Part shown: in pieces, positions 22,930 through 23,162 of the stretch
Position numbering within the stretch: the first letter of the stretch is position 1
How the letters are laid out: the number at the start of each line of letters is the position of its first letter
Assembly (NCBI RefSeq): GCF_003334255.1
Contig: NZ_QOWU01000020.1
Reading direction: 5' to 3' (one strand)
DNA: 64,000 nt
Origin: Escherichia coli
GTDB taxonomy: Bacteria; Pseudomonadota; Gammaproteobacteria; Enterobacterales; Enterobacteriaceae
Program-made: the position numbers and the translations under genes
Notes under the pieces: generated by a model
The model's database searches: none
The model's input: the letters and a program-made list of their open reading frames with translations, nothing else
What the model was told of the DNA's origin: nothing

Positions 22930-22937
22930 TATTGAGA

Positions 22938-23140
22938 TGCCGGATGCGGCGTAAACGCCTTATCCGGCCTACGGCTCGGTTTGTAGGCCTGATAAGACGC
23001 GCCAGCGTCGCATCAGGCTCCGGGTGCCGGATGCAGCGTGAACGCCTTATCCGGCCTACGGCTCGGATTTGTAGGCCTGATAAGACGCGCCAGCGTCGCA
23101 TCAGGCACAGGATGCGGCGTAAAATGCCTTATCCGGCATT
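22938..23140. repeat. BIME cluster (about 2.5 tandem REP pairs) in the nrdA-nrdB intergenic region
   Basis: Block GCCGGATGCGGCGTAAACGCCTTATCCGGCCTACGGCTCGGTTTGTAGGCCTGATAAGACGCGCCAGCGTCGCATCAGGC repeats with minor variation. Confidence 0.85.
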
Positions 23141-23162
23141 AAACTCCCAACAGGACACACTC

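What the first reader, a model, noticed from the sequence alone, without database searches (positions are those of the whole stretch)
22930..23162. A BIME/REP array lies inside the nrdA-nrdB operon
Seen in sequence: about 2.5 copies of an 80-nt REP-pair unit fill the 230-nt gap between nrdA and nrdB, so the array is part of the polycistronic mRNA. Established knowledge: transcribed REP structures can stabilise upstream mRNA segments and bind gyrase or IHF. Inference: here they could set the nrdA:nrdB stoichiometry or locally attenuate translation. The naive ORF call for nrdB runs through the array, a typical annotation artefact worth flagging.
Basis: partly seen in the sequence, partly recalled or inferred. 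Interest (0 to 1): 0.3.

Follow-up and report, generated by a model that had tools for sequence, protein, structure and literature searches.

The report
Known REP array between nrdA, nrdB
The 233-base gap between the two ribonucleotide reductase genes of E. coli K-12 holds five copies of a common bacterial palindromic repeat, an element that is already catalogued and studied, so the sighting is correct but ordinary.

Summary
The nrdA-nrdB gap (22930-23162, 233 nt) holds five REP palindromes (22939-23140, 202 nt) alternating Y and inverted Z2. This is a BIME-2 array with an 87-88 nt period and about 2.3 units, not 80 nt x 2.5.

It is already known:
- EcoCyc lists it as REP164a-e.
- Published Topo-Seq data list this exact 202-bp "nrdA>-nrdB>" BIME-2 with in vivo gyrase cleavage sites and cite "Espeli, Boccard 1997: 2 cuts".
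- A 2025 paper cites the nrdAB transcript as a reported case of a REP within 15 nt of a stop codon. Here the first stem starts 9 nt after the nrdA TGA.

There is no IHF site. A published study included nrdA-nrdB-yfaE among 390 analysed operons but not among the 47 with differential decay. That argues against a large mRNA-stoichiometry effect.

The ORF artefact is real. NrdB entries of 389, 393, 420 and 449 aa, starting at ATGs inside the array, exist in public databases.

New context:
- The array is polymorphic: 1, 3, 4, 5 or 7 REPs.
- In about 31% of complete E. coli genomes a BoxC/TMECO motif replaces it.
- Relatives without REPs carry a terminator-like hairpin at the same position.

Interest is low.

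The parts
20644..22929 (+). nrdA coding sequence (761 aa), stop TGA at 22927-22929
   Evidence: ORF list. MG1655 annotation gives nrdA at 2344865-2347150, which is window + 2324221.
22930..22938 (+). 9-nt spacer (TATTGAGAT) between the nrdA stop and the foot of the first REP stem
   Evidence: Sequence. The 9-nt spacing is kept in every REP-bearing allele, though the sequence varies (TATTGAGAT, TATTGTGAT, TTTTGAGAT).
22939..22972 (+). REP a: Y-type palindrome ending in CTAC
   Evidence: 1 mismatch to the Y consensus. Inverted repeat I9.
22973..22982 (.). short tail-to-tail (S) linker GGCTCGGTTT
   Evidence: Sequence. BIME-2 architecture as defined in PMC3333891.
22983..23018 (-). REP b: Z2-type palindrome, inverted (starts with GTAG on the + strand)
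   Evidence: 0 mismatches to the Z2 consensus. Inverted repeat I10. Part of the Rfam naRNA4 (Y+Z2 unit) hit at 22986-23056 on the - strand, 76.4 bits.
23019..23025 (.). head-to-head linker TCCGGGT
   Evidence: Sequence. It is replaced by ACA in the O157 allele.
23026..23059 (+). REP c: Y-type palindrome
   Evidence: 1 mismatch to the Y consensus. Inverted repeat I12.
23060..23070 (.). S linker GGCTCGGATTT
   Evidence: Sequence. It carries an 8-nt tandem duplication in strain INSC1002.
23071..23106 (-). REP d: Z2-type palindrome, inverted
   Evidence: 0 mismatches to the Z2 consensus. Inverted repeat I11.
23107..23140 (+). REP e: degenerate Y-type palindrome that lacks the GCC head and the CTAC tail
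   Evidence: 8 differences from the Y consensus. Repeat families D3 and D4 have a third copy here.
23141..23162 (+). nrdB translation initiation region with Shine-Dalgarno AGGA at 23152-23155, 7 nt before the ATG
   Evidence: Sequence. ACAGGA is conserved across alleles and genera.
23163..24293 (+). nrdB coding sequence (376 aa), true start
   Evidence: PDB chains of E. coli R2 are 375-376 aa and start (M)AYTTF. RefSeq annotation agrees.
22932..23162 (+). spurious in-frame N-terminal extension of nrdB through the array (TTG 22932; ATGs at 22944, 23031, 23112, 23124)
   Evidence: ORF list and in-frame starts. The extended 389, 393, 420 and 449 aa forms are present in public databases.
23129..23164 (-). 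yoaM (b4779), an 11-aa antisense small ORF ([11 protein letters not shown]). Its start overlaps the nrdB ATG and its last codons and stop lie in REP e.
   Evidence: MG1655 annotation, translation, and the ribosome-profiling and lacZ fusion report 10.1101/511675.
24293..24547 (+). yfaE, third gene of the operon
   Evidence: ORF list and MG1655 annotation.

Best explanation
This is the catalogued BIME-2 element REP164a-e of E. coli K-12. It consists of five REP palindromes (Y, Z2, Y, Z2, degenerate Y) that belong to a dispersed repeat family.

Shown:
1. At the DNA level it is a transcription-independent DNA gyrase binding and cleavage site.
2. It is transcribed as part of the nrdA-nrdB-yfaE mRNA, where it is predicted to fold into a stack of very stable hairpins.

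Inferred:
1. The first hairpin starts 9 nt after the nrdA stop codon. A terminating ribosome must therefore begin to unwind it. By the published REP-within-15-nt rule, this modestly lowers NrdA output through stalling, mRNA cleavage and trans-translation.
2. The effect on the nrdA:nrdB mRNA ratio is small.
3. The array is a replaceable occupant of a position that nearly always carries some strong hairpin in related bacteria. It tunes the operon rather than being required by it. Its copy number drifts by in-register recombination between repeat units.
For: Identity:
- The anatomy is alternating Y and inverted Z2 with short S linkers.
- Rfam naRNA4, which models one Y+Z2 unit according to PMC4550694, matches at 76.4 bits, above the gathering score of 59.5.
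- It fits the BIME-2 definition in PMC3333891.
- EcoCyc names it REP164a-e.

Gyrase:
- The supplementary table of PMC6379681 lists 'BIMEs2 ...
- From that table's totals, only about 0.2 sites are expected per 202 bp.
- The signal persists after rifampicin.

Transcription:
- The operon is one unit with no internal TSS, no intrinsic terminator and no substantial Rho termination (S2 table).
- No + strand promoter-like or terminator-like site lies in the gap.

Structure: MFE is -120 kcal/mol, z = -6.4.

Translation rule: the stem begins 9 nt after the TGA. PMC12306157 states that REPs within 15 nt of a stop stall ribosomes and names the nrdAB transcript as previously reported.

Dispensable and tunable:
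- 3,708 of 5,426 genomes have a BIME-type allele and 1,684 have a TMECO allele.
- Alleles with 1, 3, 4, 5 and 7 REPs differ by whole 87-89-nt units or REP-REP fusions.
- The same NrdA (WP_001075170.1) or NrdB (WP_000332036.1) protein accession recurs across very different spacers.

Conserved hairpin slot:
- 102 of 107 species-level spacers fold at z < -2.
- 35 have a hairpin plus T-run, against 2 of 298 control windows.
Against: - I could not read the primary paper on REP-mediated translational control (Liang, Rudd and Deutscher 2015). What was measured for nrdAB is known to me only through one citing sentence.
- No expression data for this junction were examined directly. Absence from the differential-decay list covers one K-12 strain in exponential growth with that study's thresholds.
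- The gyrase cleavage counts are small (2-3 sites).
- Replacement of the array by an unrelated motif in 31% of genomes is equally compatible with no cis effect at all.
- The conserved-hairpin argument rests on predicted folds and a simple terminator scan, not on measured read-through.
Confidence: 0.75

Rival explanations
1. mRNA stabiliser. The REP hairpins block 3'-5' exonucleases, so the nrdA segment outlives the nrdB-yfaE segment. This would set NrdA above NrdB, as in malE-malF.
For: The transcript is strongly structured. As a class, REP-containing tandem gene pairs show upstream-biased expression: median log2 ratio 0.96 against -0.09 in 10.64898/2026.03.23.713779. REP325 stabilises the upstream yjdM mRNA.
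Against: nrdA-nrdB-yfaE was among the 390 operons analysed for differential decay in E. coli BW25113 but is absent from the uncut table of 47 differentially decaying operons. [quoted passage not shown] Array size varies from 0 to 7 REPs between strains with identical proteins.
Confidence: 0.15
2. Partial transcription attenuator. The BIME causes some (partly Rho-dependent) termination before nrdB. This would be the E. coli equivalent of the terminator-like hairpin that sits at this position in relatives.
For: [quoted passage not shown] BIME-associated attenuation has been reported (Espeli et al. 2001, cited). In 35 of 107 related species the spacer holds a hairpin plus T-run immediately after nrdA, against 2 of 298 control windows.
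Against: The K-12 gap has no T-run terminator on the + strand. The operon passed a filter that removed operons with intrinsic terminators between genes or substantial Rho-dependent termination. The nrdB ribosome-binding site lies only 12 nt (23141-23152) after the last REP, leaving little untranslated RNA for Rho.
Confidence: 0.2
3. Neutral selfish DNA. The array sits here only because an intercistronic gap tolerates insertions, and it has no measurable effect on the operon.
For: There is extensive presence/absence and copy-number polymorphism, including replacement by an unrelated TMECO motif in 1,684 of 5,426 genomes. BIME-2 copy number is known to vary between strains.
Against: In vivo gyrase cleavage occurs at this element. 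Some strong hairpin lies at this position in 102 of 107 species, including lineages without REPs. The 9-nt stop-to-stem spacing is conserved in all REP alleles.
Confidence: 0.25
4. Source of a naRNA4-like nucleoid-associated RNA that acts with HU to organise the chromosome.
For: The Rfam naRNA4 hit is above the gathering score. An antisense TSS inside nrdB, 174 nt upstream of yoaM, could transcribe the matching - strand.
Against: The hit only reflects the shared Y+Z2 repeat unit. On the mRNA (+) strand the scores are 41.4 and 34.3, below 59.5. [quoted passage not shown]
Confidence: 0.03
5. The array encodes a genuine N-terminal extension of NrdB.
For: There is an open frame from 22932 with four in-frame ATGs. 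Extended forms have been deposited in databases.
Against: Solved E. coli R2 structures have chains of 375-376 aa starting (M)AYTTF. The extension is a translated repeat (arginine-rich, repetitive). It is absent from alleles with other spacers. The Shine-Dalgarno sequence sits 7 nt before ATG 23163.
Confidence: 0.01

Closest known systems
BIME-2 elements of E. coli (for example REP325 between yjdM and yjdN, or the sucC-sucB and tldD-yhdP BIME-2s)
   Same: Alternating y and z2 REPs in inverse orientation, short S linkers, tandem copies, strain-variable copy number, in vivo gyrase cleavage, and location between co-directional genes of one operon.
   Different: Nothing essential, since it is a member (REP164a-e). 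It is smaller than REP325 (5 REPs against 12). Its fifth REP is degenerate and overlaps an annotated antisense small ORF, yoaM.
REP elements within 15 nt of a stop codon that down-regulate translation of the upstream gene (Liang, Rudd and Deutscher 2015)
   Same: The first REP stem begins 9 nt after the nrdA TGA. The nrdAB transcript is cited as a reported case.
   Different: I could not read the primary data. The size of the effect on NrdA and the conditions under which it operates are unknown to me.
malE-malF REP stabiliser / differentially decaying operons
   Same: A transcribed intercistronic REP cluster lying 3' of the first gene of an operon.
   Different: The nrdAB-yfaE operon was analysed and not called differentially decaying.
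BIME-1 / RIB-RIP elements (IHF-binding)
   Same: REP pairs in intergenic DNA.
   Different: BIME-1 is y+z1 in a single copy with a long L linker carrying an IHF site. Here there are z2 REPs, 10-11-nt linkers and no IHF consensus.
BoxC / PIT / TMECO intrastrand-triplex motif
   Same: It occupies the same nrdA-nrdB spacer in about 31% of complete E. coli genomes, and in Enterobacter, Pseudocitrobacter and Phytobacter. It is also a GC-rich dispersed palindromic repeat.
   Different: The sequence family is unrelated (CCCTCNCCC N3-6 GGGNGAGGG N3 GGGNGAGGG). It is not present in this window.

Membership tests
REP / palindromic unit | Imperfect palindrome of 30-40 nt able to form a stem-loop | tested here: met
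   There are five palindromes of 34-36 nt. Inverted repeats I9-I12 are 79-86% complementary with 2-4 nt loops.
REP / palindromic unit | Conserved GTAG/CTAC tetranucleotide at the foot of the palindrome | tested here: met
   CTAC at 22969-22972 and 23056-23059, GTAG at 22983-22986 and 23071-23074. The fifth, degenerate REP has ATTA instead.
REP / palindromic unit | Extragenic and highly repeated around the genome | tested here: met
   It lies between the nrdA stop and the nrdB start. Each of 5,426 E. coli genomes holds a median of at least 34 megablast places. Three more REPs lie in this window against 0-1 in shuffles.
BIME-2 | Composed of y and z2 REPs in alternating inverse orientation | tested here: met
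Two independent checks agree: Rfam naRNA4, a Y+Z2 unit, matches at 76.4 bits, and PMC6379681 classifies the element as 'BIMEs2'.
BIME-2 | Multiple tandem copies with short S linkers, and copy number variable between strains | tested here: met
   Period 87 nt, about 2.3 units. Linkers are 10-11 nt. Alleles with 1, 3, 5 and 7 REPs occur in other strains and species.
BIME-2 | Bound and cleaved by DNA gyrase in vivo | not testable with these tools
   Published data for this exact locus give 2, 3, 0 and 3 Topo-Seq cleavage sites (Cfx, RifCfx, Micro, Oxo) and 'Espeli, Boccard 1997: 2 cuts'.
BIME-1 / RIB-RIP (IHF-binding) | y + z1 pair separated by a long L linker with an IHF consensus (WATCAANNNNTTR) | tested here: not met
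   No match with up to 1 mismatch on either strand of 22930-23162. The REP type is z2 and the linkers are 10-11 nt.
naRNA4 (Rfam RF02564) | Covariance-model score at or above the gathering threshold on the transcribed strand | tested here: not met
   The - strand scores 76.4 bits, above 59.5. The nrdAB mRNA (+) strand scores only 41.4 and 34.3 bits. The match reflects the shared repeat unit, not a demonstrated RNA gene.
REP translational down-regulator (REP within 15 nt of a stop codon) | Foot of the REP stem 15 nt or less downstream of the stop codon of the upstream gene | tested here: met
   9 nt separate the TGA (22927-22929) from G22939. The rule and the nrdAB example are taken from PMC12306157.
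REP translational down-regulator (REP within 15 nt of a stop codon) | Measured reduction of upstream protein output that depends on spacing and on tmRNA | not testable with these tools
   The primary paper is not held.
Intrinsic terminator | GC-rich hairpin followed by a T-run on the coding strand | tested here: not met
   No + strand terminator-like site lies in 22600-23400. By contrast, 35 of 107 spacers in other species have one.
Differentially decaying operon (REP stabiliser, malEFG type) | Correlated difference in half-life and steady-state level between the genes flanking the structure | tested here: not met
   This was a look-up in published tables. The operon is in S2 (390 analysed) and absent from S3 (47 positive), and both files are held uncut. 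The data cover one strain and one condition.

The most novel reading that the evidence does not exclude
The nrdA-nrdB junction may carry an ancient, selected structural punctuation mark: a strong hairpin starting within about 15 nt of the nrdA stop.

In Enterobacterales and Pasteurellales without REPs, this hairpin is a leaky intrinsic-terminator-like stem plus T-run. It has been overwritten repeatedly by whichever mobile palindrome is active in the lineage:
- REP pairs in Salmonella and Citrobacter
- BIME-2 arrays in Escherichia
- BoxC/TMECO in Enterobacter and in 31% of E. coli
- USS-like inverted pairs in Pasteurellaceae

On this reading the E. coli alleles (0, 1, 3, 4, 5 or 7 REPs, or TMECO) form a natural allelic series that tunes the alpha:beta output of ribonucleotide reductase.
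Probability: 0.3. Interest if true: 0.4.

Novelty: already known. Interest (0 to 1): 0.12.

Why it matters
As a finding it matters little. The element is annotated (REP164a-e), its gyrase cleavage has been mapped twice, and its transcript is cited as an example of REP-mediated translational control.

Two practical points follow:
1. Gene callers do place the nrdB start inside the array. Extended NrdB entries of 389-449 aa sit in public databases, so REP masking before start-codon choice is worthwhile.
2. The locus offers a ready-made natural allelic series in an essential, well-assayed operon: BIME-2 of different sizes against a BoxC/TMECO motif, with identical coding sequences. This could be used to measure what intercistronic REPs do to transcription read-through, mRNA decay, translation termination and local supercoiling.

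Tried and rejected
Papers I could not obtain:
- Liang, Rudd and Deutscher 2015 and Liang and Deutscher 2016 were not held.
- I guessed PMC ids for the 1984 nrd operon sequence paper and the 1984 palindromic-unit paper. They were not held either.

Literature searches that gave nothing useful:
- nrdA + nrdB + 'repetitive extragenic palindromic' returned no paper.
- nrdAB/REP/trans-translation and nrdA/REP/tmRNA returned nothing relevant.
- The RepRanger supplements held as text do not mention nrdA.

Ideas considered and rejected:
- IHF binding: no consensus in the gap and the wrong BIME class.
- An internal promoter for nrdB in the array: no + strand promoter-like site, and no internal TSS according to PMC5927463.
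- An intrinsic terminator in the K-12 array: none found.
- A functional naRNA4 homologue: the + strand scores fall below threshold, and the match comes from the shared repeat unit.
- A real NrdB N-terminal extension: the PDB N-terminus rules it out.
- I first thought the 88-nt TMECO allele puts its hairpin more than 15 nt from the stop and so escapes the stalling rule. Its predicted fold has an outer stem starting 4 nt after the stop, so that contrast cannot be claimed.

Limitations:
- The current RefSeq MG1655 record shown by the tool carries no REP features. The EcoCyc name therefore comes from a paper's table.
- The first terminator count underestimated T-runs, because A:T pairs were absorbed into the predicted stems. 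It was redone with an explicit scan and a coding-sequence control.

Full report
**1. What is in the sequence**

The window matches E. coli K-12. The 433-nt query around the site is 100% identical to K-12 derivatives. The gene coordinates map onto MG1655 with a constant offset of 2,324,221.

- nrdA occupies 20644-22929 and ends in TGA.
- nrdB starts at ATG 23163. This is the RefSeq start in every strain inspected.
- Solved E. coli R2 structures are 375-376 residues and begin (M)AYTTF.
- The finding's coordinates, 22930-23162, are therefore exactly the 233-nt intercistronic gap.

The gap contains five REP palindromes:

| REP | Type | Position | Orientation |
|---|---|---|---|
| a | Y | 22939-22972 | + |
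| b | Z2 | 22983-23018 | inverted |
| c | Y | 23026-23059 | + |
| d | Z2 | 23071-23106 | inverted |
| e | degenerate Y | 23107-23140 | + |

Together they span 202 nt. The remainder is 9 nt after the stop codon and 22 nt holding the Shine-Dalgarno AGGA, which lies 7 nt before the ATG.

Tandem Repeats Finder gives a period of 87 nt and 1.9 copies at 96% identity. With the degenerate fifth REP this is about 2.3 units.

The feature is not a chance pattern:
- The transcript folds at -120 kcal/mol against -89 +/- 4.8 for shuffles (z = -6.4).
- Loose REP matching finds 8 REPs in the window against 0-1 in shuffles.
- The repeat occurs at a median of at least 34 places in each of 5,426 complete E. coli genomes.

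**2. Classification**

PMC3333891 defines the two main BIME classes:
- BIME-2: y and z2 REPs in inverse orientation, in multiple tandem copies with short S linkers, and with copy number varying between strains.
- BIME-1: a single y+z1 pair with a long L linker that often carries an IHF site.

The array meets every sequence-level criterion of BIME-2 and fails those of BIME-1. Its linkers are 10-11 nt, and no IHF consensus occurs with up to one mismatch.

Two independent checks agree with the result:
- The only Rfam family reaching its gathering score in the whole window is naRNA4 (76.4 bits against 59.5, at 22986-23056 on the - strand). PMC4550694 describes naRNA4 as one Y plus one Z2 hairpin of REP325.
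- A published table labels the element 'BIMEs2'.

**3. It is already known**

- A table built from EcoCyc lists 'REP164a-e' for nrdA (PMC10100675).
- The Topo-Seq supplement of PMC6379681 lists a 202-bp BIME-2 'nrdA>-nrdB>' with 2 (ciprofloxacin), 3 (rifampicin + ciprofloxacin), 0 (microcin B17) and 3 (oxolinic acid) gyrase cleavage sites.
  - From the totals in that table (4,635 sites in 4.52 Mb), about 0.2 sites would be expected in 202 bp.
  - The same paper reports that BIME-2 signals tend to rise after rifampicin, meaning they do not depend on transcription.
- PMC12306157 restates the finding of Liang, Rudd and Deutscher (2015) that REPs within 15 nt of a stop codon stall ribosomes. [quoted passage not shown]

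I could not obtain the primary paper.

**4.

*Transcription through the array.* This is supported. PMC5927463 includes nrdA-nrdB-yfaE in its set of 390 operons. That set was filtered to exclude internal TSSs, intrinsic terminators between genes and substantial Rho-dependent termination. My scan finds no + strand promoter-like or terminator-like site in the gap.

*Stabilisation setting the stoichiometry.* This is not supported. The operon is absent from that study's uncut table of 47 differentially decaying operons. This covers one K-12 strain in exponential growth, so a small or conditional effect is not excluded.

*The class-level picture.* It is mixed.
- A 2026 preprint shows that REP325 is both a partly Rho-dependent terminator and a stabiliser.
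- It also shows that REP-containing tandem pairs are upstream-biased on average, with large variance and no general half-life effect.

*Attenuation of translation.* This is the inference that fits best. The foot of REP a lies 9 nt after the TGA. That spacing is kept in every REP-bearing allele and Escherichia species examined.

*IHF.* It does not apply.

**5. The ORF artefact**

The mechanical ORF from TTG 22932 (453 aa) runs through the array in frame with nrdB. In-frame ATGs lie at 22944, 23031, 23112 and 23124.

An exact-sequence look-up shows that extended forms exist in public databases:

| Length | Contigs | Example |
|---|---|---|
| 389 aa | 194 | ACA77079.1, E. coli ATCC 8739 |
| 393 aa | 76 | ACX39095.1, E. 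coli DH1 |
| 420 aa | 6 | - |
| 449 aa | 4 | - |

The 453-aa TTG form is not in the collection.

**6. Variation among strains**

Of 5,426 complete E. coli genomes, 3,708 have a place covering at least 80% of the K-12 query. A further 1,684 carry at least 80% of a quite different 74-nt spacer. Together these account for 99.4% of genomes.

An evenly spaced sample of 59 chromosomes gives this distribution (anatomy):

| Allele | Count | Gap length |
|---|---|---|
| five REPs | 26 | 226-241 nt |
| three REPs | 11 | 145-151 nt |
| four REPs, Y/Z1-like type (E2348/69) | 3 | 189 nt |
| seven REPs | 1 | 322 nt |
| non-REP allele | 18 | 88 nt |

- Size changes are whole 87-89-nt units or in-register fusions of two Y REPs. 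This is the behaviour expected of BIME-2.
- The 88-nt allele contains CCCTCTCCC-CTTGC-GGGAGAGGG-TTA-GGGTGAGGG. This matches exactly the BoxC/PIT/TMECO type A pattern defined in PMC4666352.
- The same NrdA accession (WP_001075170.1) or NrdB accession (WP_000332036.1) recurs across several of these spacer types.

The array is therefore not required by the operon.

**7. Other species**

A degenerate pattern for the nrdB start retrieved 120 loci from the species-representative genome collection. For 109 of them I located the nrdA stop, and 107 have gaps of 400 nt or less.

- Gaps range from 42 to 333 nt, with a median of 100.
- 102 of 107 fold better than shuffles at z < -2.
- The first stem of 5 bp or more usually begins within 14 nt of the stop.

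What the spacers contain:
- Escherichia albertii has five REPs. E. whittamii and a cryptic clade have three. Another Escherichia lineage has one (61 nt).
- Salmonella and Citrobacter have one REP pair.
- Enterobacter, Pseudocitrobacter and Phytobacter have TMECO-like pairs.
- The shortest spacers (42-67 nt) are found in Pantoea, Kosakonia, Atlantibacter, Cedecea, Buttiauxella, Serratia and Pasteurellaceae. They consist of a GC-rich hairpin, usually followed by a T-run, plus the Shine-Dalgarno sequence.

An explicit scan finds hairpin plus T-run in 35 of 107 spacers, against 2 of 298 length-matched windows inside nrdB.

My inference is that a strong hairpin just after nrdA is the conserved feature, and that the BIME-2 is its current occupant in Escherichia. 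Whether that hairpin is selected (as a leaky terminator or a 3' end protector) or merely attracts palindromic elements cannot be decided here.

**8. Verdict**

- Right on gyrase, on a possible translational effect and on the ORF artefact.
- Wrong on IHF.
- Unsupported on mRNA stoichiometry.

The element is already catalogued and experimentally characterised. The allelic dimorphism with TMECO and the conserved hairpin slot are modest additions, not a new kind of system.

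Noticed in passing
window 23129-23164 (- strand): yoaM (b4779), an annotated 11-aa antisense small ORF ([11 protein letters not shown]). Its ATG overlaps the nrdB ATG, and its last codons and stop lie in the degenerate fifth REP. A preprint reports ribosome-profiling and lacZ-fusion support, plus an antisense TSS 174 nt upstream, inside nrdB. In strains with the 88-nt TMECO spacer the sequence after the first five codons differs, so the 11-aa ORF cannot be conserved there.
   Followed up: partly
L003:401-488 (E. coli CI5) and 1,684 of 5,426 complete E. 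coli genomes: The nrdA-nrdB spacer is dimorphic in E. coli. About 31% of genomes, including ST131, O111:H8 and O91 strains, carry an 88-nt spacer with a BoxC/TMECO type A intrastrand-triplex motif instead of the BIME-2 array.
   Followed up: yes
L010, L025, L042, L079, L009 and about 30 other loci (nrdA-nrdB spacers of other genera): Lineages without REPs have a canonical-looking hairpin plus T-run directly after nrdA, although nrdB follows 20-30 nt later with no room for a promoter. This implies a leaky intra-operon terminator. In Pasteurellaceae the stem is an inverted AAGTGCGGT pair, which from memory is the uptake signal sequence.
   Followed up: partly
window 16092-16173: Another BIME unit (Z2 then inverted Y, 2 and 1 mismatches to consensus) lies 23 nt downstream of the yfaL stop. 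yfaL is on the - strand and ends at 16196.
   Followed up: no
window 24560-24595: A degenerate Z2-like REP lies between the convergent genes yfaE and inaA. It gives a weak Rfam naRNA4 match (26.7 bits) at 24525-24592.
   Followed up: no
window 21166-22431 (- strand): A 421-aa open reading frame runs antisense inside nrdA. It is probably a shadow ORF of a codon-biased gene. It is not annotated in MG1655.
   Followed up: no
L006:401-641 (strain INSC1002) and L005:401-626 (O157:H7): Micro-variation occurs inside the array. There is an 8-nt tandem duplication (TACGGCTC) in the second S linker of INSC1002. In O157:H7, the head of REP c is replaced by the ACAGGATG head typical of REP e, which suggests conversion between units.
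   Followed up: no
public protein databases (cluster of P0001-P0005): N-terminally extended NrdB entries (389, 393, 420 and 449 aa) that start inside the REP array are deposited for many E. coli genomes, for example ATCC 8739 and DH1.
   Followed up: yes
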